Made by a program: the position numbers and the translations under genes. From Candidatus Heimdallarchaeota archaeon (GTDB taxonomy: Archaea; Asgardarchaeota; Heimdallarchaeia; Heimdallarchaeales; Kariarchaeaceae), in NCBI GenBank assembly GCA_030149205.1, contig JASBSB010000007.1:540001-572000 (forward strand): 32,000 nt of DNA, written 5' to 3'. Every line of letters begins with the position of its first letter. The stretch's first letter is position 1. Below the pieces are notes generated by a model. It did no database searches. It was not told the origin of the DNA and saw nothing but the letters and a program-made list of their open reading frames with translations. Below are positions 2,859 to 26,599 of the stretch, in pieces.

Positions 2859-4481
2859 GTGAATGATTTAATTGAAAGTGATATTTTAGTCGTTGGGAGT
2901 GGTATATCTGGGTTACTGTTCACATTACATCTAACTCAGAACACAAACTATACAGTCTCGCTTGTGACAAAACGTTCACTTACAGATACAAACACTGATT
3001 GGGCACAGGGAGGAATTGCTTCAGTGCTATCTCCAAAAGACACGTTCGAGAGCCATATTGAGGATACCCTGACCGCTGGAGATGGCTTGTGTAAACCAAC
3101 CGTAGTTAAAGAAGTTATCGAAAATGGGCCTGATCAGGTTCGTTTATTAGAATCCCTAGGGGTTCCCTTTGACAAGGTTAATGGGGAATTTGAACTAGGA
3201 AAGGAGGGGGGACATCATGAGAGAAGAGTCGCCCATGTCAAGGATTTCACGGGACATGCCATTCAATCCACTTTAACAAAGAGAATTCGAGAAACAAAAA
3301 ATGTTCAAATCTTCGAAAACCATATGATGATAGACTTAGTGACTGTTTCTGATAAAATCGCTGGAGCTTATGTATTTGATAAAGAAAAAAAGAAGGTACT
3401 CAGATTTCAATCCAAACTAACAGTTCTTGCAACAGGAGGAGCGGGGAAAGTTTTTCTATACACAAGCAACCCAGACACAGCCTCTGGTGATGGTATAGCA
3501 ATTGCTTATCGGGCTGGTGCAATAATTCGTAATATGGAGTTTTTTCAATTCCATCCGACCTGTTTATATCACCCATATGCAAAATCATTTCTAATTTCAG
3601 AGGCTCTTAGAGGTGAAGGAGCAATTCTTAAGACAATGGATGGTGATCACTTCACACCTCGATATCATGATCTTGCTGATCTTGCCCCGAGAGATATTGT
3701 GGCTCGAGCTATAGATAGCGAGATGAAGAAACGAGGTGATGATCATGTGTACCTCGATATCTCATTTAAACAGAAAGAGTTTATTCAGGGTCACTTTCCT
3801 CATATCGATTCAACTCTAAAAGAATATGGGATCGATATGACGTCTGAACCAATCCCTGTGGTTCCAGCAGCTCATTACACTATGGGAGGTATAGCATCAG
3901 AACTTAACGGTAAAACCAATATTGCAGGACTTCTTGCGATTGGAGAAACTACCAACACAGGGTTACATGGGGCGAATCGGCTAGCAAGCAATTCTCTTCT
4001 TGAAGGTGCAGTAATGGCAAAGAATGCATTTTCTTATACTAAGGAACTATTGGACAAAGGTATTCCAGAATATACCTTCTCCTCATGGGATGAGGGAACT
4101 AGTGTTGAGAGTGATGAGGCTGTGTTTGTGACTCATGCTTGGGATGAGATTCGTAGGGCAATGTGGAATTATGTTGGAATTGTGAGAACCGACGGTCGGT
4201 TGTTGAAGGCAAAGAAACGTCTCAAGTTAATTAAGGATGAGGTTCAGCAATATTATTGGGATTATAAGGTAAGCTCAAACCTAATTGAATTAAGAAATTT
4301 GATTGATGTTGCAAACCTAATTATTGAATCAGCACTCCTAAGAAAAGAAAGTAGAGGGGCTCATTACAGGCTGGATTACCCCATGCATTCTCCAGACGTA
4401 AGAGATACATTAGCTCACAAAATTTTAGGGGTATTCTTATCAGAAGATATACACATCGATGAATTCTCCCCTAAAATTTAA
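2859..4481 (+). CDS. nadB: L-aspartate oxidase (NAD de novo synthesis)
   Basis: FAD-binding VVGSGISG, TDWAQGGIA, EGGHHERRVAH, VLATGGAG, FFQFHPT, LISEALRGEGA, PAAHYTMGG, LHGANRLASNSLLEG and RKESRGAHYRLDYP. GTG start. Confidence 0.96.
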   Translation: MNDLIESDILVVGSGISGLLFTLHLTQNTNYTVSLVTKRSLTDTNTDWAQGGIASVLSPKDTFESHIEDTLTAGDGLCKPTVVKEVIENGPDQVRLLESLGVPFDKVNGEFELGKEGGHHERRVAHVKDFTGHAIQSTLTKRIRETKNVQIFENHMMIDLVTVSDKIAGAYVFDKEKKKVLRFQSKLTVLATGGAGKVFLYTSNPDTASGDGIAIAYRAGAIIRNMEFFQFHPTCLYHPYAKSFLISEALRGEGAILKTMDGDHFTPRYHDLADLAPRDIVARAIDSEMKKRGDDHVYLDISFKQKEFIQGHFPHIDSTLKEYGIDMTSEPIPVVPAAHYTMGGIASELNGKTNIAGLLAIGETTNTGLHGANRLASNSLLEGAVMAKNAFSYTKELLDKGIPEYTFSSWDEGTSVESDEAVFVTHAWDEIRRAMWNYVGIVRTDGRLLKAKKRLKLIKDEVQQYYWDYKVSSNLIELRNLIDVANLIIESALLRKESRGAHYRLDYPMHSPDVRDTLAHKILGVFLSEDIHIDEFSPKI

Positions 4482-16577: not shown

Positions 16578-17333
16578 ATGGGTTCTGAAGAAGTAATTTT
16601 GAAAGCAGAAACGTTGAAAATCTTTGAACATAAAAATGTTCCAAGAGAAAACATCCTCCCTTTGATTAAAAGTACAAGAGAGAGAGCCCTTAAGTCTCAT
16701 TATTACAGATCAATTGACACCTATGATTTTATCTTCCCAAGAATCTCTCTTAACCCCTTCCTCAAAAAGGTGATAAAGAAGAAGCCAATTTTAGACGTTG
16801 GATGTTCATTTGGAGTCGACCTCAGGTACCTAGAGACGCAGGGAGTCAATCCAACAAATCTCTATGGTGTTGAGAAGAACTCAGACTTTCTTCAACTAGG
16901 GTTTGATCTTTTCGGAGATTATTCCAATGGGATCACCTTCTACTGTGGTGACATACTTCATGATACACATTTTAAATCGGTTCAACCTGGAAGAAAGGAG
17001 TTAATTCTTTCCAAAACTGAGCTGGGATGTGTCCATTCAGGCTCACTTCTCCATCTACTCACAAGAGATGAAATCAAGCAGTTTTTTGCCAAGGCATACC
17101 AAAGTTTGTCCTCAGGTGGTTTCGTAATTGGAAGAACAGCTAGCTTTGAATCAACAATTCAAAACCCAAGCTCACAAATGAGAACTGTGTTAAGCCAATC
17201 TGACTTTGAGAGTCTTCTACAATCAAGCGGTTTTGTAGAAATTGAGAGCAATTTATCAATGTCTGGTGCTCTCCCCAAGAAAGGTGATGATCTTATCTTG
17301 AAATCCTTACATTTTATTGCAATGAAAGAATAA
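16578..17333 (+). CDS. Class I SAM methyltransferase resembling the fungal AusD/Trt5/AdrK family
   Basis: RERALKSHYYRSI...F...ISLNP, ILDVGCSFGVDLRYLETQG...NLYGVE...FLQLGFDLFGD, FYCGDIL, VHSGSLLHLL and VIGR. Start placed at ATG 16578; the longer 16470 frame adds an unlikely low-quality N-terminus. Confidence 0.75.
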   Translation: MGSEEVILKAETLKIFEHKNVPRENILPLIKSTRERALKSHYYRSIDTYDFIFPRISLNPFLKKVIKKKPILDVGCSFGVDLRYLETQGVNPTNLYGVEKNSDFLQLGFDLFGDYSNGITFYCGDILHDTHFKSVQPGRKELILSKTELGCVHSGSLLHLLTRDEIKQFFAKAYQSLSSGGFVIGRTASFESTIQNPSSQMRTVLSQSDFESLLQSSGFVEIESNLSMSGALPKKGDDLILKSLHFIAMKE

Positions 17334-17422: not shown

Positions 17423-18775
17423 ATGAGTTCAAAAGAGAAGAATAACTACATCCATGTTTCGAGAGCCAAAATTAAATTTACCTCATCCATATCCGGGATA
17501 ATAGAGGGTATAAACGAGTTTCCGAAGATGTATCATTCATATAAAGGAGAGCAATATCTAGCTATTGGTTCAACAGTTTCAATACAAGATCGAACTCATA
17601 ATTTTAAGCAACTCTCAAATGAAATTTTTTCATATACCTTTCCAGCTGATTTAAACACACCAGTGTGGTTTGGTGGATTATCCTTTTATCCAAAGCAAAA
17701 CGACGAAGAACATACATGGAGGGGTTTTTCAGCTCAACATTTCTTTATTCCAAAGGTCTTACTTAGAATTTCTACCACAAAATCAGAACTAATTGCATTC
17801 TCAAAAGAGTCCAAGGAGAAAGCTAAGGCAGTATTACAAACCTTTCAAAAAAAGATGATGGCTGTTCATAAAAATCAATCTGAGCCAACATTGGTTTCTG
17901 AAATCTCCGAGAGAACTGAAACAGACTTAATTAGTCTTGAACAATGGAAAAAACAAGTAAAGTTTACACTTGAGTCAATAGAGAAGAAAAAAATATCCAA
18001 AATTGTTCTGGTAAGAGGTAAAAGAATTAACATATCAAATTATGAATTTTCAATCTCTGAAACCCTGCACTCACTAAACAAGAAATTTCCAGAGTGCATT
18101 ATTTATGCCTTTCAGGTTGCCAAAAACTCAATTTTCTTTGGAGCAACTCCTGAGATACTCTTTGAAACGAGCTCAGGGTCACTTCAAACCATGGCACTAG
18201 CGGGTTCAATTAACAGAGGAAGCTCAGATCTTACTGATCAAATTCTCACCAAACAGATGTTTGCTTCTATCAAACTTTCAGAGGAACACAACATAGTAGT
18301 TAATTACCTCAAAAAAAATCTTAGTAAGCTATGTGATGAGATAGTAGTTTCTGAGAAGCCAGATGCACTAAAGCTCAACAACATACAACATCTCAGGACC
18401 AGACTCTCAGGTGAACTAAAATCTCAGAAATCAGTTTTTGACATAATTAAGGAGTTTCATCCTACTCCTGCAGTTGGGGGGATGCCTCCCAAAAAGGCTA
18501 TAACTACCCTCGGTATGCTTGAAACTTTCGACAGAGGTTGGTATAGCGGAACAATGGGGATAATCTCTCCAAACAATGATGCCTTGTTTGGTGTAAATAT
18601 TCGTGGTGCATTATCCTTGAATAATGGGGTTTGGATGTATGCTGGTGCTGGAATTGTAAAAAATTCTCATGCAGAGGATGAGTGGAAAGAGGTGGAACTA
18701 AAATTTTTAGCTGTTTATAACTCACTATATTATTATAAAAAGAATGAAGGAGAGCAGAATGAAAACACCTCTTAA
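17423..18775 (+). CDS. menF: Isochorismate synthase (menaquinone-specific type)
   Basis: MST-fold motifs KIVLVR, FFGATPE, TMALAGS, EEHNIVV, IQHLRT, FHPTPAVGGMP, DRGWYSG, FGVNIRGA and YAGAGIVKNSHAEDEWKE. Overlaps menD. Confidence 0.92.
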   Translation: MSSKEKNNYIHVSRAKIKFTSSISGIIEGINEFPKMYHSYKGEQYLAIGSTVSIQDRTHNFKQLSNEIFSYTFPADLNTPVWFGGLSFYPKQNDEEHTWRGFSAQHFFIPKVLLRISTTKSELIAFSKESKEKAKAVLQTFQKKMMAVHKNQSEPTLVSEISERTETDLISLEQWKKQVKFTLESIEKKKISKIVLVRGKRINISNYEFSISETLHSLNKKFPECIIYAFQVAKNSIFFGATPEILFETSSGSLQTMALAGSINRGSSDLTDQILTKQMFASIKLSEEHNIVVNYLKKNLSKLCDEIVVSEKPDALKLNNIQHLRTRLSGELKSQKSVFDIIKEFHPTPAVGGMPPKKAITTLGMLETFDRGWYSGTMGIISPNNDALFGVNIRGALSLNNGVWMYAGAGIVKNSHAEDEWKEVELKFLAVYNSLYYYKKNEGEQNENTS

Positions 18776-20450
18776 TTTAACGTATGCACAGCTCATCGTT
18801 GATGAATTGATAAGGCAAGGTGTGACCAGATTCGTATGTTCACCAGGGTCAAGGTCAACCCCACTTGTATTTGCGATTTCATTAAGAAAAGAGCATATCA
18901 AATATCATATTATTATAGATGAGAGGTCTGCTGGTTTTTTTGCCTTAGGACAGGCAAAGGAGACAGCTCAACCTGTGGCTTTGATTTGTACTTCGGGTAC
19001 TGCTGTTGCAAATTATTTTCCAGCAATTGTTGAGGCTCATTACACAAATATTCCAATGATTGTTCTTTCAGCAGATCGTCCACACAGTCTTCGAGATGCT
19101 GGAGCAAATCAAACAATCGACCAAATCAAAATCTTTGGTGGTTATGTTAACCATTTTGTAGATTTACCAACTCCACAACCTTCAATCACTGATCACGAAC
19201 GTAAGGTTTTGACAGGGATTGCGGCTAAGGCTTATCATGCATCCCTTTTTCCAACTAAAGGTGTTGTACACCTGAATCTTCCCTTTGTTAAACCTCTGGA
19301 ACCCACAGAAGAAGAAACTCTAGAAAATCTTAAATTCGTCAAAGGTTCAAAAATCAAATTTTTTCATCCTAGGAAACTAAACGGTTTTGAGAATGGGGAT
19401 GATTCATTTCAAGGAAAGGTTCTAATAATAATGGGAGCAATCATTCCTGATGATTTGGACTTGTTTGACCTTAAGGCTCTTTTAGAACAAAAAGGGGTTC
19501 CTGTGGTTGCAGATGTGTTGACCAACTTCAGATCCTTGGGTTGTTCAACTCTTATTCAATCATTTGAGGGTATTTTAAGTAGCTCTAATTTCGTTAAGCG
19601 GTTTGATCCTGACACAATTATCCTTATTGGAAAAAATCCCAGCTCAATTTCTGTTAACAAATTTCTCTATAAAACAAAGGCTCAAAAGATACAACTGAGT
19701 ACTAACTCTGATTGGAATGATGAGACCTACCAAACAACACTAAAGGTAGAATTGCCAGGCGAGCAAATCCCAGAGTTTTTGAATAACTCTATAACACAAA
19801 TAGATACAGGTTATCTTTCATTACTATCCAGTTTAGACAAAAGTCTTGATGATTCTCTTCCGCAATCATTCTCAGAAATAGGTGTAGCTAATAAACTACT
19901 TCAAATGCTGGAAGATTCAACTATTTTCTTAGCTAACAGTTCTGTAATACGTAACTTTGACATTGTGTATCGTTTCTCTCCTCATAAATCACTAAGATTT
20001 CTAGGGAACCGTGGAGTGAGTGGGATTGATGGGAACATTTCTACTGCCGTTGGTGTTGCACTCTCATCGGAAAACCGAGTTTACGCAATTATGGGTGATC
20101 TAGCCTTTCTTCATGACTTAAACTCAATGTCGATTGTACAAAAGTATAAACCTAAAGTTGGGATAATTGTCTTTAACAATTCTGGTGGAGGTTTATTTAA
20201 AAGACTACCCATTTTTCAACACAAAACAGTTTTTTCTGAGTTTTATTCAACCCCCCAAAACTTTAACATTAAAGACATTTGCGCTGCTTTTTCATTAGAC
20301 TATTATGAAGTAACAGCCATGGAATCCTTAAATCGTTTCAATTTCGCAGAGATGGAAACCCCCTTTTGTCTTGAAATCAAATTAATTTCAGACGCAGAGC
20401 CTGAAGCCTATTTAGAATACCTGAAGACATGTCAGAATAAAATGGCTTAA
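18759..20450 (+). CDS. menD: SEPHCHC synthase (ThDP-dependent)
   Basis: SPGSRSTPL, DERSAGFFALG, CTSGTAVANYFPAIVEA, LSADRP, NRGVSGIDG and ThDP motif MGDLAFLHDLN...FNNSGGGLF. Start ATG 18759 follows AAGGAGA and overlaps the menF 3' end. Confidence 0.95.
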   Translation: MKTPLNLTYAQLIVDELIRQGVTRFVCSPGSRSTPLVFAISLRKEHIKYHIIIDERSAGFFALGQAKETAQPVALICTSGTAVANYFPAIVEAHYTNIPMIVLSADRPHSLRDAGANQTIDQIKIFGGYVNHFVDLPTPQPSITDHERKVLTGIAAKAYHASLFPTKGVVHLNLPFVKPLEPTEEETLENLKFVKGSKIKFFHPRKLNGFENGDDSFQGKVLIIMGAIIPDDLDLFDLKALLEQKGVPVVADVLTNFRSLGCSTLIQSFEGILSSSNFVKRFDPDTIILIGKNPSSISVNKFLYKTKAQKIQLSTNSDWNDETYQTTLKVELPGEQIPEFLNNSITQIDTGYLSLLSSLDKSLDDSLPQSFSEIGVANKLLQMLEDSTIFLANSSVIRNFDIVYRFSPHKSLRFLGNRGVSGIDGNISTAVGVALSSENRVYAIMGDLAFLHDLNSMSIVQKYKPKVGIIVFNNSGGGLFKRLPIFQHKTVFSEFYSTPQNFNIKDICAAFSLDYYEVTAMESLNRFNFAEMETPFCLEIKLISDAEPEAYLEYLKTCQNKMA

Positions 20451-20513
20451 CCACAGACAGTCTCACTTCAAATAAATCAAAAATCTAATTAATCTTAATT
20501 TTAATTTAAATTA

Positions 20514-21005
20514 TTGATAGTCAGAGATCTACCTGTTGGAAGTATTAATATTGAATCTAAGGAAGTTAAGGTCATAAACCAAGTAAACTTTACCTGTCAA
20601 AGTAGCACAGAATGCTGCAGAAAGCATGATATTCCCGTTACACCAAAAGAGGTAGAAAGGATCACAGATAATGGGTTTGAACCAGATCAGTTTCTTATAA
20701 ATTTCACTCCGATCTTAATTAACAGTAAGACTGGGAAGAGTAAGATCAAAGCATACGTTCTCAAGAAGAAACCATTTTCTCATGATTGTGTGTTTCTAAA
20801 CGAGAAGAACCTCTGCTCAATACATGAGTTTAAACCTTTTGCATGCAAAATTTATCCGTTTACCTATGAAATAAAGGATACAGAAAATATTGAGGTTCGA
20901 GTACATCAAGATAGTGTGTGTAGCTCTGTCAGTGTTGGATTAAATGCTCCCTCGGATTCTATCAATATTATCAGAGATGTCTATTCCAAAGTTAAAATGC
21001 TCTGA
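20514..21005 (+). CDS. YkgJ-family (CxxCxxCC-like) cysteine-cluster, putative Zn or Fe-S protein
   Basis: FTCQSSTECCRKH...CVFLNEKNLCSIHEFKPFACKIYPF...C. TTG start. Confidence 0.85.
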   Translation: MIVRDLPVGSINIESKEVKVINQVNFTCQSSTECCRKHDIPVTPKEVERITDNGFEPDQFLINFTPILINSKTGKSKIKAYVLKKKPFSHDCVFLNEKNLCSIHEFKPFACKIYPFTYEIKDTENIEVRVHQDSVCSSVSVGLNAPSDSINIIRDVYSKVKML

Positions 21006-21100
21006 AGATTTTATTGATGACAAATAATAATTAGAGTCTGAATTTACTTCTCTAATATTTTTATCAACTATCTTTTATAGAATTAAGAAAATAAACGTCT

Positions 21101-21958
21101 ATGTTAATTGGGGTACATTGCTCAATAAGTGGAGGATTAGTAAATGCTCCTCTTGAAGCTCAATCATTGTCATGTAGCACTTACCAAATTTTTACCAGGT
21201 CCTCACGGTCTTGGAAAACACCCGAATTGAAGTCGGAACAGGTCGAACTATTTAAGAGAAAGAACAAAGAGTTAGGATTTAGTAATCTTGTAACTCATTT
21301 ACCCTATCTCCCAAATTTTGCTAATCCGGACAAAGAAATTTATAGTAATTCTCAACATAATTTAATTGAAGAGGCTAAACGATGTGACATCTTAGAAGTT
21401 TCTAACTTGGTGGTTCATATAGGGTCACATAAGGGCTTAGGTTCTAAAAAGGGTATTTTGACAGTGCAATCACATTTAGAAAAATTTATTCAGTCTGAAT
21501 TTAAGGTCAACATCTGTCTTGAGATTTCAGCAGGTTCCAAAAATTCAGTGGGGAGTACTATCGAAGAATTGCAGCAGATCCGCGATGGATTATCTGAAAC
21601 TTCTCAGATCAAAATCTGTCTTGATACAGCTCATGCTTTCGCCTCAGGATATGATTTTAGAAATAAAGAAGCTGTAGATACTTTTACTGATGAGTTTGAG
21701 TCTTTGATTGGATTCAAAAATCTAGCAGTTATTCATGTGAACGATTCTAAAGTTGATGTAGGTGGAAAGGTGGATCGTCATGAACATCTTGGAAAAGGCT
21801 ATATTGGAATGCAGGGCTTACAAAACCTCCTTAGGCACAAAAAAATTGTAGACCTTCCTATACCAAGAATTCTTGAGACACCTCGTGATACTAAAGAAGC
21901 GGATAAAATTAATTTAAAGATATTATCAGAAATTGTTAATGGGCCATGGCAGATTTGA
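21101..21958 (+). CDS. nfo: Endonuclease IV (AP endonuclease)
   Basis: GVHCSISGG, QIFTRS, HLPYLPN, VVHIGS, LEISAG, CLDTAHAF, HVNDSK, DRHEHLGKG and ILETP (tri-zinc ligands present). Confidence 0.95.
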   Translation: MLIGVHCSISGGLVNAPLEAQSLSCSTYQIFTRSSRSWKTPELKSEQVELFKRKNKELGFSNLVTHLPYLPNFANPDKEIYSNSQHNLIEEAKRCDILEVSNLVVHIGSHKGLGSKKGILTVQSHLEKFIQSEFKVNICLEISAGSKNSVGSTIEELQQIRDGLSETSQIKICLDTAHAFASGYDFRNKEAVDTFTDEFESLIGFKNLAVIHVNDSKVDVGGKVDRHEHLGKGYIGMQGLQNLLRHKKIVDLPIPRILETPRDTKEADKINLKILSEIVNGPWQI

Positions 21959-22026
21959 ACTGCCGACCTCACGGTTTCAAACAAAGTTATCAGCCGTGCG
22001 CTCTAACCAAGCTGAGCTAATAGCCC
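21940..22026 (-). tRNA. tRNA-Ile(GAU) with a 12-nt intron at canonical position 37/38 (intron 21976-21987); no encoded CCA
   Basis: Minus strand GGGCTAT TA GCTC AGCTTGGTTA GAGC G CACGG CT GAT A [ACTTTGTTTGAA] A CCGTG AGGTC GGCAG TTCAAAT CTGCC ATGGCCC A. All four stems pair; anticodon at 21991-21989. Confidence 0.95.
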
Positions 22027-22196
22027 ATTCTATTGGTGCTTACACCTGTAACCCTGAGTCCGTAGTCAATTGTTTAAAGATATCGGTTCTGACCCGTTTA
22101 CTAAAATAATTATTAACTGAAATTACTTTTGATAAAGCGAATCTAAATCCCGAAACCGAACTAGAATTTATTAAACCAAAAATCGATTATTATACA

Positions 22197-22895
22197 GTGA
22201 GCTTAGATAAAACCCCTCAAAAAATATCAAAACTTTTTGATGGAGTTGCCTATCGATATGATCTTTTAAATGATGTGATGACAGGCTTTAGTCATCGTAT
22301 CACTAGAAAGCTAGGGTTAAACTTAGTAGGGGTGAAACCAAATAGTAGGATTTTAGATGTTGCTACAGGAACAGGGGATTTCCCAATCCTGCTAACTAAA
22401 TCTCATAATGTCAAACAAGTTATTGGTATAGATATATCGGAAAATATGCTTCATTTTGCAAAGCTGCGTACTAAGAATCAGTCGAAAATAGTTTATGAAT
22501 ATGGAAATGCTTTAGAACTTAATTTTGAGGCAAATCAATTTGACTTAATAACGATAGGATACGGGATTAGAAATGTCCCCGATACCTTGAAAGTTCTTAC
22601 AGAGATGAATAGAGTTACGAAATCAGGTGGAAAACTGTTAATAGTAGAAGCTACACCCCCACAATCAAAATATCTTAATTTTCTCACACATTTTTATTTT
22701 AAATCGATTGTTCCACTGGTGGCATCTCTTTTAGCACATAATGGGGAAGCTTATAGATACTTTGCAGAAAGTGTTTATCAATTTCCCATTGCACCCAAAT
22801 TTTGTAAAATTATAAATTCTGCAGGGTGGGTAAATATCAAATATAAGCCTTTATACTTTGGAACAGTGACTATTTTTCTAGCAGAGAAACCATAA
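22197..22895 (+). CDS. menG: Demethylmenaquinone methyltransferase (UbiE/MenG)
   Basis: LFDGVAYRYDLLNDVMT, ILDVATGTGD, GIDISENML, GNALEL, FDLITIGYGIRNV, EMNRVTKSGG and AYRYFAESV. GTG start. Confidence 0.93.
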   Translation: MSLDKTPQKISKLFDGVAYRYDLLNDVMTGFSHRITRKLGLNLVGVKPNSRILDVATGTGDFPILLTKSHNVKQVIGIDISENMLHFAKLRTKNQSKIVYEYGNALELNFEANQFDLITIGYGIRNVPDTLKVLTEMNRVTKSGGKLLIVEATPPQSKYLNFLTHFYFKSIVPLVASLLAHNGEAYRYFAESVYQFPIAPKFCKIINSAGWVNIKYKPLYFGTVTIFLAEKP

Positions 22896-22954: not shown

Positions 22955-24367
22955 ATGTTGCTTCGCTACCAGTATCGAAGATTATTCAAGGTTGTCTCGA
23001 TCTTCTTCCTAGTTACATTAATCTTGAGTTCACTCATTTTCTTTATTCCGCTTCTTTTCCCACCACCCACATACAATGTTTCCAATTACTTAATCAAGGA
23101 AACTCAAGATGGATTTGTTAGTGATGAGGTCTCGGGAAACAACACCATATATGTTTTAACAAAACCTGATTTGAATAACCTAACGATAAATAAGATTAAC
23201 GCCATCAACAAAAATGGGAAGCTTTTATGGTCATATCCTATCGCAGATCCATTTTCTAGCACACAACTACTTGCTGGATCAGACAACCAAGTGTTAGCTT
23301 TGGTTTATAAAAACCTCCTCCCCACAATCGAGCTTTATGGACAATTTGGGCAGGTATGGAACCTAAACATCAGTTCGCTTGTTCCTGATTCGCTGGTCTC
23401 TCTGGTTGTTGCTAATGCCATCTCAAGAGGGTTCGCTGTGAGTTTTGTAAGTGTAAGCAGAACGACAGATGGAAATATTGTGGAAGCCACATTAAACTAC
23501 TTTGAAATTGGAACTGCACCTAAAATTTTGAATACCCTGTCAATTAAAGCCCAAGGTGTCACAAAACTTGTAAGACCCACAGAAAAAGGTGACTCCGTTA
23601 AATTTGGGTATATTAGTAAAGGTGTATCAGAGCTACTCTACCAGTTCAATTCGACAACAAAGCGGGGGAAATTTCTACAGACTGTAAATTTTTCCAACTT
23701 TGCCTTTGGGAAGACGTACATAGGAAAAATAACAACAAAAGAAGGTGAAATCCGTGTATTTGGGACATTTAATCTGACTCAGATAGAATTTTGGAAAAAT
23801 GATCAGATGTTCGCAAGTATCGATAACTCAGTTGCGAAGATCTATCAATCATTTGCTCAAAAGGGCGATTCAATACAACATGTTGAATTTCTTCCTGGTA
23901 GGGTTCTTTTCACTGCTTACAGTGAGTTTAATCATTTCGCCCAATCATCATTTGGTGTAGTATTATTAAATCAAAATGGGTTGACAAAGATAACCAAGTT
24001 AAATCTCCCTGAAGCGGACCCAAACTTTCTGATCAGCTCTCGAGCTGTTTATTATATTAACTCAGAGGTTGTTATATTACAAGAACTGTTCAATCCTTTA
24101 AATAAGACCTTAAAATATCGAACAGTAATATCTACCCCTTCAACTACTAATCCAGTTGACTTTATTGATACCTTATCACTTTTGGAAAAATTCTCTTTAC
24201 CAATTTTTATTGGTATCCTATTTTCCGGGGTTACTGTCATAAGAACCAGAGGCCCAATTATTGATGAACATCTCTATCCTTCTGAGAATAAAAATTACAA
24301 AGAGTACGTTGAAAAACTAAACAAAATTGAGAAAATAGCTGATGAATCTGAAAATAATGATATTTGA
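22955..24367 (+). CDS. Membrane-anchored hypothetical protein (N- and C-terminal TM, beta-rich ectodomain)
   Basis: TM VVSIFFLVTLILSSLIFFIPLLF, then a beta-rich region including NGKLLWSYP (propeller-like), a second TM FSLPIFIGILFSGVTVI, and a ~40-aa charged tail. Confidence 0.75.
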   Translation: MLLRYQYRRLFKVVSIFFLVTLILSSLIFFIPLLFPPPTYNVSNYLIKETQDGFVSDEVSGNNTIYVLTKPDLNNLTINKINAINKNGKLLWSYPIADPFSSTQLLAGSDNQVLALVYKNLLPTIELYGQFGQVWNLNISSLVPDSLVSLVVANAISRGFAVSFVSVSRTTDGNIVEATLNYFEIGTAPKILNTLSIKAQGVTKLVRPTEKGDSVKFGYISKGVSELLYQFNSTTKRGKFLQTVNFSNFAFGKTYIGKITTKEGEIRVFGTFNLTQIEFWKNDQMFASIDNSVAKIYQSFAQKGDSIQHVEFLPGRVLFTAYSEFNHFAQSSFGVVLLNQNGLTKITKLNLPEADPNFLISSRAVYYINSEVVILQELFNPLNKTLKYRTVISTPSTTNPVDFIDTLSLLEKFSLPIFIGILFSGVTVIRTRGPIIDEHLYPSENKNYKEYVEKLNKIEKIADESENNDI

Positions 24368-24414: not shown

Positions 24415-24774
24415 ATGACATTAATAAAATCAATCCATCATGTGGTCATATATGTAACAAACATGAATGAAGCTATCAATTTTTACACAGAGATTTTAGA
24501 GATGAAATTAGGATACAAAAGTGATATGTGGACCGAAGTTTCATTTCTGACCCCAGGGTCTTATATTGGATTGCATTATACGAAGGAAGGAAATTCTAAA
24601 TCTATTGGAACTGAAGTCTCTTTTGAAGTAACAGACATCCATTCAGTGAGGGAAAGGTTACTCCAGAACAAAGTAAATTTTACGAGTGATGTGCTTGAAG
24701 CAGCACCTGGTAAATTAATTGCTAACTTCTTGGATCCATTTGGAAATCCATTATCTATCTATGAAACTATCTAA
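24415..24774 (+). CDS. VOC/glyoxalase-family protein
   Basis: IHHVVIYVTNMNEAINFYTEILEM, VSFEVTDI and FLDPFGNPLSIYE. Confidence 0.9.
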   Translation: MTLIKSIHHVVIYVTNMNEAINFYTEILEMKLGYKSDMWTEVSFLTPGSYIGLHYTKEGNSKSIGTEVSFEVTDIHSVRERLLQNKVNFTSDVLEAAPGKLIANFLDPFGNPLSIYETI

Positions 24775-26599
24775 CAAAAAATTTGAATTTAGAGCTTTTG
24801 CGTAAAATAATTAGAGCTAACACCATGGGCATAAATACATAAATTCCAGAATTGTTTTTAGATGTAGTTGGAATCCCTGTATTAGTGGCACTAGTCTTAG
24901 TGGCTGTTGATATATACTTCTTAACAAATGAAAGATCCTTAGTTGCAAAGGTCAAGTAAATTGCTTTGAAATAGAGTGCTGAGACATTGAATCTTCTTGC
25001 TTCAAATTCAGAATTTGCTAGTCCAAGTAATGAAAATGCCTGTTGAAAACTTGAATTATCCACAAATGTAGGTGAGATTTGATCTATCAGATTTTTATAA
25101 TAAAGGCTATAGAGTCTCCCAAGTTTGAAAAAATCATACTGGGAAAATCTGTTGCCGTTGGGAAAATACCCCATAATGCTGTCAACAAAATCAGAACCCC
25201 ACATATTATAAATGTTAAAAGGGTGGGGTAAACCCAAAGAATGACCAATCTCATGAGCCAGGACTTGTGACATCCCTCTGCTTTTGTTGATACCTTCATA
25301 AACTCGAGTTGGTTGGATCCCCTGTAATTGCCATCCCATTCCGCCTAATCCTGCAAACCTGAGGTCACCCCAACTAAATACAACCTTATCTAAGAGGAAA
25401 GTCAGACTTGGAAGGTTTGTGGTGTTTTTTTCATGCTGAATGAACAAGGGGAGAATGTTTGTTTCTAAGTAGGTTAAAAACCCCTTACTTACATCAAGCA
25501 GATATATATCTTCAGCAGGGATATAAGTCATAAAACTCTTCATCTCATTAACAAGGGTTCTGTAGTCAGAAAGATTGAACCATTGGGTTGATACATTAAA
25601 ATTCCACCAAGAGAAACTTTCAGATAGCAATTTCTGTATTCTTTTATCATGAACTACCCATTGAATGTCTGATTGGTTTGGATACAGTCTTGTCCAATTG
25701 TTAAAAATTATATTGTTCACTTGAATTGTATCTGAAGTGATCATCTGTCCCATCACAGGTTCACTAAATAGATTTTCCATATAAGTATTAATCACTCCAT
25801 TTATCCAGTTGTTAAACTCTGGGGAAGTAAAATTTGACCTGTTCCACACCCCCAACGGTCTGGTCAGTATGTTGTCATAATATCCATTTGATCCCCAAGC
25901 TGTGTTTATAAAATTCCCATACCATGTAACCGATGAGAGGTCCACAAACTGTAGGGGGTACTGTTGTATTCCACCCCATCCATTCGTTTGTCTCCCGAGA
26001 TTGAGACCTCCAGTTCCAGAAAAGAAAGAAGGGGTGAGTTTTTGAGTATCAATATCTTTTGGATACACATTAAACCAATGAGGGCCTGCTTTTGTTACAT
26101 CTGTCAGATTAAAGAGGAATAAGTTATAATCTGCTGTAGATATCTTTGTCTGAAACTTGTTATATAACCATTTTACAGTGTCAACAGCATTAAAGGACGT
26201 TCCTACCCTGGGAACAAAACTGTCATTTTTCAGACCTCCATTGAATGCAGTGGAGTTAAATGAGTAACCATTAGGTGTGCTAGTAGACTCATTTGCTACA
26301 AGTGCTTTAACTAAATCTTGATGATCTTTATCTGTAAAAGGTAAAATTTTTACTTGAAACTTATAATTTAATGTGAAACCCAAACCAGCTCTAGATCTAT
26401 CATATACTCGATTGTTATATGTCAGTAACCTGTTTTCAATGTTAATAGACGAGTCAAATTTGGAATCGACAAAAACATTCACCGTAATTGGGACGATTTT
26501 GTCAGCGATCGATGTTTGGTGATACATGGTGTCCCCCCCTACCCCCATTGTACTCAAAGTTAGTGAAAAAATGATAATTATGGTTATTTGAGTCCTCAT
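24767..26599 (-). CDS. Surface-anchored metzincin-type zinc metalloprotease
   Basis: Signal peptide, HEIGHSLGLPH (HExxHxxGxxH), Met-turn SIMGY, S/T-rich linker, C-terminal TM and basic tail RKSSKFK. Confidence 0.88.
   Translation of the reverse strand: MRTQITIIIIFSLTLSTMGVGGDTMYHQTSIADKIVPITVNVFVDSKFDSSINIENRLLTYNNRVYDRSRAGLGFTLNYKFQVKILPFTDKDHQDLVKALVANESTSTPNGYSFNSTAFNGGLKNDSFVPRVGTSFNAVDTVKWLYNKFQTKISTADYNLFLFNLTDVTKAGPHWFNVYPKDIDTQKLTPSFFSGTGGLNLGRQTNGWGGIQQYPLQFVDLSSVTWYGNFINTAWGSNGYYDNILTRPLGVWNRSNFTSPEFNNWINGVINTYMENLFSEPVMGQMITSDTIQVNNIIFNNWTRLYPNQSDIQWVVHDKRIQKLLSESFSWWNFNVSTQWFNLSDYRTLVNEMKSFMTYIPAEDIYLLDVSKGFLTYLETNILPLFIQHEKNTTNLPSLTFLLDKVVFSWGDLRFAGLGGMGWQLQGIQPTRVYEGINKSRGMSQVLAHEIGHSLGLPHPFNIYNMWGSDFVDSIMGYFPNGNRFSQYDFFKLGRLYSLYYKNLIDQISPTFVDNSSFQQAFSLLGLANSEFEARRFNVSALYFKAIYLTFATKDLSFVKKYISTATKTSATNTGIPTTSKNNSGIYVFMPMVLALIILRKSSKFKFFVR

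What the first reader, a model, noticed from the sequence alone, without database searches (positions are those of the whole stretch)
17423..22895. Classical (men) menaquinone genes in a non-halophilic archaeon, with the middle of the pathway missing locally
Seen: overlapping menF-menD and a nearby menG, but no menH, menC, menE, menB, menI or menA in the window. Known: among archaea the classical route is chiefly associated with Halobacteria, while several other lineages use the futalosine route. Inference: quinone-based respiration in an Asgard-like lineage through a bacterial-derived pathway, with the remaining steps either elsewhere in the genome or replaced.
Basis: partly seen in the sequence, partly recalled or inferred. 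Interest (0 to 1): 0.6.

Follow-up and report, generated by a model that had tools for sequence, protein, structure and literature searches.

The report
Scattered vitamin-K2 pathway, Heimdall-group archaeon
This non-halophilic Asgard (Heimdall-group) archaeon carries an intact bacterial-type vitamin K2 (menaquinone) pathway; the steps missing from the window lie elsewhere in its genome, so the pathway is ordinary, but among 400 sampled Asgard genomes only this one family has it.

Summary
menF (17423-18775) and menD (18744 or 18759-20450) overlap, a UbiE/MenG methyltransferase lies at 22197-22895, and all three score above curated cut-offs.

The "replaced steps" idea is refuted. MenB, MenC, MenE and MenA are found above cut-off on contigs C7, C4 and C10 of the same genome. 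A hotdog thioesterase next to menC is a MenI candidate. Only MenH is unassigned. No futalosine genes (MqnA/D) are present.

The host is an archaeon with an Asgard marker:
- archaeal SSU rRNA;
- a VPS28 homologue on the window's own contig;
- a non-acidic proteome with 35.5% GC.

It also encodes quinol-using enzymes: cytochrome b, cytochrome bd and three heme-copper oxidases.

- **Distribution:** of 400 sampled genomes of the phylum, true MenD occurs only in the window's family (11 of 12 genomes).
- **Layout:** relatives keep a menF-menD-menB-menA-menE cluster, so the scattering here is derived.
- **Origin:** in the MenD tree the family groups with Ignavibacteriota/Balneolota. One origin is not rejected (AU p 0.57). 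A shared origin with haloarchaea is rejected (p 0.02).

Prior art exists: the Eme et al. 2023 supplement, a 2020 preprint, and earlier notes of this scan on another piece of this genome. I rate it a new member of a known kind, of modest interest.

The parts
17423..18775 (+). menF, isochorismate synthase (chorismate to isochorismate), first step of the classical menaquinone pathway
   Evidence: TIGR00543 298.8 bits (cut-off 224.75) and PF00425 at 1.5e-65. The best solved relatives are plant ICS1 and bacterial MenF. K193 and E244 and all other fully conserved residues are kept. It is adjacent to menD in all 10 family relatives that have MenD.
18744..20450 (+). menD, SEPHCHC synthase (thiamine-diphosphate enzyme); an alternative start is at 18759; overlaps the end of menF by 17-32 nt
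   Evidence: TIGR00173 380.8 bits (cut-off 244.2), PF02776 and PF02775. It keeps the 47 invariant alignment columns. AAGGAG precedes the ATG at 18759.
22197..22895 (+). ubiE/menG-type C-methyltransferase, probable demethylmenaquinone methyltransferase (last step)
   Evidence: TIGR01934 217.9 bits (cut-off 158.35), PF01209 194 bits. It is the only gene of this family above cut-off in the genome. Within the family its distribution is mutually exclusive with the men-cluster-linked methyltransferase type.

Best explanation
The window holds the first two genes (menF, menD, translationally coupled) and the probable last gene (ubiE/menG) of a complete classical, chorismate-derived menaquinone pathway in a non-halophilic Heimdall-group Asgard archaeon. 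The remaining genes are dispersed over other contigs: menB on C7; menC on C4 with a hotdog thioesterase beside it (a MenI candidate); menE on C4 beside a geranylgeranyl-reductase-family gene and the archaeal-type shikimate genes; and menA on C10 near an alpha/beta-hydrolase. Inferred route: chorismate, isochorismate (MenF), SEPHCHC (MenD), SHCHC (MenH, unassigned), o-succinylbenzoate (MenC), its CoA ester (MenE), DHNA-CoA (MenB), DHNA (thioesterase), demethylmenaquinone (MenA), menaquinone (UbiE/MenG). The quinone would feed the genome's cytochrome b complex, cytochrome bd and heme-copper oxidases. The pathway most likely entered the ancestor of this one family as a bacterial men operon, separately from the haloarchaeal acquisition, and was later broken up in this genome's lineage. 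The gene identities, their locations and their distribution are shown. The product, the electron flow and the transfer history are inferred.
For: Gene identities above curated cut-offs: MenF and MenD, MenB 413 bits against 343, MenA 231 against 102 and NF004751 318 against 264, MenE 347 against 330, MenC 303 against 201, UbiE 218 against 158. A 4HBT hotdog thioesterase lies 56 nt upstream of menC. MqnA/D is absent from this genome and from all 83 genomes of the class. Quinol users are present: three COX1 genes, cytochrome b and CydA. Host: archaeal SSU rRNA at 1198 bits; VPS28 on the window's own contig, found in 0 of 14 control genomes; median pI 6.7. Family trait: MenD above cut-off in 11 of the 12 family genomes and in none of the other 388 sampled genomes of the phylum; MenB in family f1 only within the class. 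The clustered layout in relatives includes menF-menD-menB-menA-menE in G048. MenD tree: the family lies in a set with SH-aLRT support 98 together with Ignavibacteriota and Balneolota. One clade for the family is the best tree found (p-AU 0.57). Family plus haloarchaea as one clade is rejected (delta lnL -63.5, p-AU 0.021). The complementary distribution of the two methyltransferase types supports the window gene as the acting MenG.
Against: No MenH reaches its cut-off (best 71 bits). The candidates rest on position only (C10:373-1230) or on weak orthology (C7:360898-361632). The MenI candidate rests on fold and position only. Window-type UbiE also occurs in sister families that lack MenD and MenB, so its ancestral role was not menaquinone methylation. 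MenD and MenF are very divergent (38% identity or less to anything else), although their catalytic residues are intact. The trees use quick searches, midpoint roots and only the 80 most similar named bacterial loci. Two family genomes carry a second MenB type, so the history involves more than one transfer. No chemistry or expression data exist.
Confidence: 0.85

Rival explanations
1. The men genes are bacterial contamination or chimeric assembly in a metagenome-assembled genome, not archaeal genes.
For: MenB is 87-92% identical to Bacteroidota MenB. Its GC content is 43% against 36% in the flanks, and its neighbours are not syntenic among relatives. MenA sits on a short 11.9 kb contig.
Against: The window lies on a 634 kb contig that also carries a VPS28 homologue and a TrpRS/TyrRS-family gene (PF00579) 60-67% identical across the family. 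In G055 that gene and menD share one contig. MenD, MenB and MenA recur in 10-11 of 12 independently assembled family genomes. MenB is about 90% identical across several bacterial phyla too, so the high identity reflects slow evolution. GC content of menF, menD, menG, menA, menE and menC is 34-39%, like the genome.
Confidence: 0.02
2. MenF and MenD are real, but the window's UbiE-type gene is not the menaquinone methyltransferase. It serves another (benzo)quinone or unrelated pathway shared with the sister families, and this genus makes demethylmenaquinone or uses an unrecognised methylase.
For: Orthologues at 37-50% identity occur in 14 of 22 f5 and 2 of 2 f6 genomes, which have no MenD or MenB. 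The gene is 1.7 kb from menD, separated from it by unrelated genes, and was not near menFD in the 18 kb G055 locus examined. It also scores 145 bits on the methyl-plastoquinone MpqE model, below that model's cut-off.
Against: It is the only TIGR01934 member above cut-off in the genome. The five family genomes that have it are exactly those that lack the men-cluster-linked methyltransferase, and the other seven are the reverse. From established knowledge, UbiE enzymes commonly accept both demethylmenaquinone and benzoquinol substrates (E. coli UbiE).
Confidence: 0.15
3. The family's men genes were assembled by several independent transfers into different genera rather than by one ancestral operon acquisition.
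For: MenD identity within the family is only 31-49%, against 60-67% for a TrpRS/TyrRS-family gene. The free MenD tree does not recover one family clade. G046 and G051 have a different MenB type. Two methyltransferase types exist.
Against: Constrained trees with a single family clade are as good or better for MenD (p-AU 0.57) and for the main-type MenB (p-AU 0.51). The menF-menD pair is conserved in all 10 relatives that have MenD, and the accessory TPR and UbiA-fusion genes recur beside men genes in several genera. This argues for a shared ancestral cluster with later replacements.
Confidence: 0.25
4. MenF and MenD feed a different isochorismate-derived product (salicylate, a siderophore or another metabolite) rather than a respiratory quinone.
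For: Isochorismate synthases serve several pathways, and MenH is not identified.
Against: MenD, MenC, MenE, MenB and MenA are all specific to the naphthoquinone route and all are present. In relatives they form one cluster. No DhbC, EntC or salicylate synthase model reaches its cut-off.
Confidence: 0.03

Closest known systems
Classical bacterial menaquinone pathway (E. coli / B. subtilis menFDHBCE, menA, menG/ubiE)
   Same: The same enzyme families in the same chemical order. The menF-menD adjacency is the usual bacterial layout, seen in 58 of the 80 named loci fetched (68 of 90 with the family's own loci). Relatives of this genome keep an operon-like cluster.
   Different: In this genome the genes are dispersed over four contigs. 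MenH is not recognisable. menE sits beside archaeal-type shikimate genes (ADH synthase) and a geranylgeranyl-reductase-family gene. MenD and MenF are unusually divergent.
Haloarchaeal classical menaquinone pathway (Zhi et al. 2014, PMC3914697)
   Same: An archaeal lineage that holds the bacterial-type Men pathway through horizontal transfer, linked to aerobic respiration, with Chloroflexota among the nearest bacterial relatives in that study. In my MenD tree the haloarchaea group with Anaerolineae.
   Different: The host is a different phylum and is not halophilic. A joint clade of this family and the haloarchaea is rejected (p-AU 0.021), and the family groups with Ignavibacteriota and Balneolota instead.
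Reports of quinone biosynthesis genes in Heimdallarchaeia (Eme et al. 2023 supplement, PMC10307638; Liu et al. 2020 preprint 10.1101/2020.02.20.957134; menaquinone assumed in Appler et al. 2024, 10.1101/2024.07.04.601786)
   Same: The same lineage and the same general claim that menaquinone-type quinones serve its electron transport chain.
   Different: In the text held here, those papers speak of Heimdallarchaeia as a whole and do not separate head-group synthesis from generic UbiA, UbiD or UbiE homologues. Here MenD and MenB are confined to one family, and MqnA/D is absent from all 83 genomes of the class.
Futalosine (Mqn) pathway, the usual archaeal route
   Same: The same end product class.
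   Different: No MqnA/MqnD (PF02621) in this genome or in any of the 83 class genomes, while the control genomes were detected.

Membership tests
Classical (Men) menaquinone pathway | MenF isochorismate synthase with the catalytic Lys/Glu pair | tested here: met
   TIGR00543 298.8 bits against 224.75. K193 and E244 are invariant in 69 of 69 MenD-linked MenF proteins.
Classical (Men) menaquinone pathway | MenD SEPHCHC synthase (thiamine-diphosphate enzyme) | tested here: met
   TIGR00173 380.8 bits against 244.2. The invariant E60, R112, Q123, S399, R403, R423 and GD...NN motif are kept.
Classical (Men) menaquinone pathway | MenH SHCHC synthase (alpha/beta-hydrolase) | tested here: inconclusive
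   The best TIGR03695 hit is 71 bits against a cut-off of 208.55. Only 3 of the 7 control genomes that have MenD reach this cut-off either. The candidates are C10:373-1230 near menA and C7:360898-361632, which is 30% identical to the cluster-linked hydrolase of G047.
Classical (Men) menaquinone pathway | MenC o-succinylbenzoate synthase | tested here: met
   TIGR01928 302.6 bits against 200.65 at C4:570025-571143.
Classical (Men) menaquinone pathway | MenE o-succinylbenzoate-CoA ligase | tested here: met
   TIGR01923 347 bits against 330 at C4:981827-983263. It is 32-35% identical to the MenE inside the men clusters of G045, G047 and G048.
Classical (Men) menaquinone pathway | MenB DHNA-CoA synthase | tested here: met
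   TIGR01929 413 bits against 342.7 at C7:440400-441242. It is 87-92% identical to named bacterial MenB.
Classical (Men) menaquinone pathway | MenI / DHNA-CoA thioesterase (hotdog fold) | tested here: inconclusive
   A 142-aa 4HBT/4HBT_2 protein lies at C4:569541-569969, directly upstream of menC on the same strand. Its specificity cannot be told from sequence.
Classical (Men) menaquinone pathway | MenA DHNA polyprenyltransferase | tested here: met
   TIGR00751 230.6 bits against 102.15 and NF004751 318 against 264 at C10:2113-3024.
Classical (Men) menaquinone pathway | MenG/UbiE demethylmenaquinone C-methyltransferase | tested here: met
   TIGR01934 217.9 bits against 158.35, the only such gene in the genome. 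Substrate specificity is inferred from the complementary distribution with the cluster-linked type.
Futalosine (Mqn) pathway | MqnA and MqnD (PF02621) | tested here: not met
   No match in this genome (93.5% complete) or in any of the 83 genomes of the class. The control genomes were detected.
Asgard (Heimdall-group) archaeal host, not a haloarchaeon or bacterium | Archaeal rRNA, a eukaryotic-signature protein, and a non-acidic proteome | tested here: met
   RF01959 at 1198 bits. VPS28 at 53 bits on contig C8, with 0 of 14 control genomes matching. Median pI 6.71 and GC 35.5%. COX1 open frames of 790-850 aa in the family match the CoxA-CoxC fusion that Appler et al. report for Kariarchaeaceae.

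The most novel reading that the evidence does not exclude
Within Asgard archaea, a recognisable route to the naphthoquinone head group exists only in this one family (probably Kariarchaeaceae). It was gained as a bacterial men operon from an FCB-group or Chloroflexota-like donor, independently of the haloarchaea. The other oxidase-bearing Heimdallarchaeia, including the large-genome family f5 (possibly Hodarchaeales, the proposed closest relatives of eukaryotes), have terminal oxidases, a MenA-like prenyltransferase and a UbiE homologue, but neither Men nor Mqn head-group enzymes. They would therefore make their quinone by an undescribed route, salvage it, or lack menaquinone altogether, contrary to current electron-transport models for these archaea.
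Probability: 0.35. Interest if true: 0.6.

Novelty: new member of a known kind. Interest (0 to 1): 0.35.

Why it matters
It identifies the probable membrane electron carrier, and its biosynthetic genes, for the Asgard family that most consistently carries heme-copper oxidases. That makes a quinone LC-MS prediction concrete: menaquinone, perhaps with a partly saturated side chain.

It adds a second archaeal lineage, after the haloarchaea, that took up the bacterial classical pathway together with an oxygen-linked lifestyle.

The distribution also narrows a general claim in the eukaryogenesis literature. Menaquinone synthesis is not a trait of Heimdallarchaeia as a whole, which leaves the quinone source of the other oxidase-bearing families an open and testable question.

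Tried and rejected
- **Single-protein scan:** the scan of named genomes with the window's MenD alone found nothing, because the protein is too divergent. The alignment-based scan worked.
- **Full AU test:** the AU test on the 97-row mixture-model tree did not finish in two 300 s runs. I replaced it with a 48-row LG+G4 set.
- **Promoter and terminator scan:** it gave no more sites than shuffled sequence, and the sigma-70 model does not apply to archaea.
- **SdhA idea:** I suspected the FAD-binding gene at 2859-4481 was a quinone-linked SdhA/FrdA. It is NadB, L-aspartate oxidase, at 702 bits against a cut-off of 629.
- **MenB identity:** I considered that the 92% identity to Bacteroidota MenB meant contamination or a very recent transfer. 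I rejected this because MenB is about 90% identical across several phyla and across most family members.
- **Quinone head group in family f5:** gene contexts were uninformative, and HPPD (homogentisate synthesis) covers only 2 of 22 f5 genomes.
- **Literature gaps:** the supplements of Appler et al. are not held. One search was ineffective because of whole-word matching.
- **Methyltransferases next to menF:** those at 14660-15442 and 16470-17333 have no counterpart near men genes in the four relatives' loci examined, so I do not count them as part of the pathway.
Full report
**What is in the window.** The window is G000:C8:540001-572000, on a 634 kb contig of a 3.31 Mb, 12-contig genome that is 93.5% complete with 2.8% contamination.

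- ORF 17423-18775 (+) is an isochorismate synthase: TIGR00543 298.8 bits against a cut-off of 224.75.
- ORF 18744-20450 (+) is MenD: TIGR00173 380.8 bits against 244.2.
- The two overlap by 32 nt from the first ATG. The overlap is 17 nt if the ATG at 18759, preceded by AAGGAG, is the true start.
- After an unrelated CxxCxxCC protein (20514-21005) and endonuclease IV (21101-21958) comes a UbiE/MenG-family methyltransferase at 22197-22895: TIGR01934 217.9 bits against 158.35.
- None of the other 27 large ORFs of the window belongs to a Men family.
- MenF keeps K193 and E244, invariant in 69 of 69 MenF proteins encoded next to a MenD, and every other fully conserved residue.
- MenD keeps all invariant columns of a 24-sequence alignment.

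**The rest of the pathway is elsewhere in the genome.** Whole-genome profile searches found four more steps, all above curated cut-offs:

| Step | Place | Score against cut-off |
|---|---|---|
| MenB | C7:440400-441242 | 413 against 343 bits |
| MenA | C10:2113-3024 | 231 against 102; NF004751 318 against 264 |
| MenE | C4:981827-983263 | 347 against 330 |
| MenC | C4:570025-571143 | 303 against 201 |

- A 142-aa hotdog-fold (4HBT) thioesterase lies 56 nt upstream of menC on the same strand and is a reasonable MenI candidate.
- MenH is the only unassigned step, with a best hit of 71 bits against a cut-off of 208.55. That model also misses its cut-off in 4 of the 7 control genomes that have MenD.
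- Two hydrolases are MenH candidates. One is two genes upstream of menA. The other is 30% identical to the hydrolase inside the men cluster of relative G047.
- MqnA/MqnD of the futalosine route are absent.
- menE lies between a geranylgeranyl-reductase-family gene and ADH synthase, the archaeal entry to chorismate synthesis. The bacterial-type genes are thus embedded in archaeal metabolism.

The "replaced steps" idea is refuted.

**Who the host is.**
- The genome has an archaeal SSU rRNA: RF01959, 1198 bits, the best of its clan.
- It has a VPS28 (ESCRT-I) homologue on the window's own contig. None of the 14 control genomes, four archaea among them, has one.
- The proteome is not acidic: median pI 6.71, (D+E)/(K+R) 1.04, GC 35.5%. 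From general knowledge, this excludes a salt-in halophile.
- A TrpRS/TyrRS-family gene (PF00579) in the window is 60-67% identical across the family. In G055 it shares a contig with menD.
- The MenD of family member G050 is identical to NCBI protein MCH8905849.1, whose organism name is cut off at "Candidatus ..." or "Candidatus He...".
- Earlier notes of this scan call the genome Heimdallarchaeia/Kariarchaeaceae.
- The family's COX1 open frames of 790-850 aa match the CoxA-CoxC fusion that Appler et al. report for Kariarchaeaceae.

Contamination is very unlikely.

**Is a quinone needed?** The genome encodes three heme-copper oxidase subunit I genes, a cytochrome b and a cytochrome bd subunit I. 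That menaquinone feeds them is inferred, not shown.

**Distribution.**
- Of 400 sampled genomes of the phylum (33 families), MenD above cut-off occurs in 11. All are in the window's family f1: G000 and 10 of its 11 relatives. Every other hit is below 90 bits, the acetolactate-synthase-like range.
- Within the class (83 genomes), MenB is found in f1 only and MqnA/D in none.
- Strong MenA (188 bits or more) is found in f1 and in two f4 genomes. Other families have only borderline MenA-like prenyltransferases.
- COX1 occurs in f1 (10 of 11), f4 (2 of 3), f5 (9 of 22) and f6 (2 of 2).

Several oxidase-bearing lineages therefore lack both known head-group routes. I checked gene contexts and 4-hydroxyphenylpyruvate dioxygenase without resolving this.

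**The layout here is derived.**
- All 10 relatives that have MenD keep menF next to menD.
- G048 has menF-menD-menB-menA-menE contiguous on one strand.
- G047 has a hydrolase, a UbiA-fusion gene, a small ORF and a UbiE-like methyltransferase running divergently from a TPR::menF fusion, followed by menD, menA and menE. G045 is similar.
- Same-genus G055 has menF-menD and, 4.6 kb away, the CxxCxxCC-nfo pair that abuts menD in the window.

An ancestral cluster later dispersed in this genome is the simplest reading.

**The "menG".**
- The window gene is the only TIGR01934 member above cut-off in the genome.
- Its orthologues occur in the window's own genus and in genus g6 of the family, but also in f5 (14 of 22) and f6 (2 of 2), which lack MenD and MenB.
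- The other seven family genomes instead carry a different UbiE-like methyltransferase, 55-67% identical among themselves, only 23-29% identical to the window type, and often beside men genes.
- The two types are mutually exclusive: 7 genomes have one and 5 have the other.

This supports the window gene as the acting methyltransferase here, by displacement. It also shows that the gene was not part of the transferred cluster. These genomes are related, so the pattern reflects only one or two evolutionary events.

**Origin.**
- The window's MenD is 38% identical or less to any other protein among 5.8 billion, and 33-37% identical to its family orthologues. This is fast divergence with catalytic residues intact.
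- In a 97-row tree with 80 named loci, all family MenDs fall in a set with SH-aLRT support 98 together with Ignavibacteriota, Balneolota and one 'Bacteroidetes bacterium' MAG. Its sister group (support 91) holds Anaerolineae, a Gemmatimonadaceae sequence and two haloarchaea.
- On a 48-row subset, constraining the family to one clade gives a better likelihood than the free tree (+5.15, p-AU 0.57).
- Joining the family with the haloarchaea costs 63.5 log-likelihood units (p-AU 0.021).
- MenB is uninformative. It is about 88-92% identical among Bacteroidota, Chloroflexota, a gammaproteobacterium and most family members.
- The eight main-type family MenBs can form one clade (p-AU 0.51). G046 and G051 carry a second MenB type, so some replacement has occurred.

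Limits: the tree searches were quick ones, the roots are midpoints, and the bacterial sampling is biased towards sequences similar to the query.

**Literature.**
- Zhi et al. 2014 (PMC3914697) found the classical pathway in archaea only in Halobacteriaceae, acquired from bacteria, with Chloroflexi among the nearest neighbours.
- A 2026 survey notes that overviews of archaeal quinones are more than a decade old (PMC13386864).
- For Asgard archaea, the Eme et al. 2023 supplement states that ubiquinone/menaquinone genes are "near complete in Heimdallarchaeia".
- A 2020 preprint lists phylloquinone/menaquinone genes in Heimdall MAGs.
- Appler et al. 2024 assume menaquinone as the carrier.
- No paper in the library combines "isochorismate" with "Asgard". 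"Futalosine" with "Asgard" returned only papers with single passing mentions of Asgard.
- Two earlier notes of this scan, on the C4 region of this genome, had already found the pathway spread over the genome. My searches agree with them independently.

**Verdict.** The feature is real and the pathway is ordinary. It is essentially complete, but dispersed, in a non-halophilic Asgard archaeon. It is best filed as a new archaeal member of a known pathway, partly anticipated in the literature. The added value lies in four points: the restriction to one family, the derived scattering, the separation from the haloarchaeal acquisition, and the open question of what quinone the other oxidase-bearing Heimdallarchaeia use.

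Noticed in passing
class-wide searches; examples L148:7405-8409 (G071 MenA-like UbiA) and L149:6550-7272 (G071 UbiE): Sister families f4, f5 and f6 include genomes with heme-copper oxidase (2 of 3, 9 of 22, 2 of 2), a MenA or MenA-like prenyltransferase and, in f5 and f6, a UbiE orthologue. They have no MenD, MenB or MqnA/D. The source of their quinone head group is unexplained.
   Followed up: partly
L144:6282-7016 (G047) versus window 22197-22895: Two UbiE-like methyltransferase types are mutually exclusive within the family. The men-cluster-linked type is in 7 genomes (genera g2-g5) and the window type in 5 (g1 and g6).
   Followed up: yes
L009:10400-11242 (G000 menB); L033 and L157 (G046, G051 menB): MenB is about 88-92% identical between most family members and Bacteroidota, Chloroflexota and a gammaproteobacterium. 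Its GC content is 43% against 36% in the flanks. G046 and G051 carry a second MenB type only 57-61% identical to the others.
   Followed up: partly
L144:7178-9307 (G047); L138:1214-2083 (G000 C10): A TPR domain is fused to the N-terminus of MenF in G047 (709 aa). In G000 the homologous TPR protein is a separate gene between an alpha/beta-hydrolase and menA.
   Followed up: partly
L139:2133-5388 (G000 C4:977133-980388): A 542-aa protein with no family match and a 544-aa protein with a C-terminal MenA-like UbiA domain lie upstream of a geranylgeranyl-reductase-family gene and menE. The UbiA fusion recurs close to men genes in G045, G047, G049, G052 and G054. An earlier scan note reads the pair as a quinone-salvage module.
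   Followed up: partly
window 11053-13612: A UbiD-family decarboxylase (12362-13612) follows a 415-aa ORF that has no Pfam match. It could be the archaeal mevalonate-pathway decarboxylase or a quinone-related enzyme. This was not tested.
   Followed up: no
window 2859-4481: The gene with the fumarate-reductase-like flavoprotein domains is L-aspartate oxidase NadB (NF006567, 702 bits against a cut-off of 629), not a succinate dehydrogenase subunit.
   Followed up: yes
window 22955-24367 and 24767-26599: Two large ORFs (470 aa directly downstream of the ubiE gene, and 610 aa on the minus strand) have no Pfam or NCBIfam match.
   Followed up: no
window 20514-21958; L146:2274-3626: The CxxCxxCC (PF03692) and endonuclease IV pair is conserved in same-genus G055. 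There it lies 4.6 kb from menD instead of abutting it.
   Followed up: partly
G000:C2:103797-105122, C8:413685-415052, C2:435999-437357: There are three heme-copper oxidase subunit I paralogues in one Asgard genome: one at 443 bits and two divergent ones at about 210 bits.
   Followed up: no
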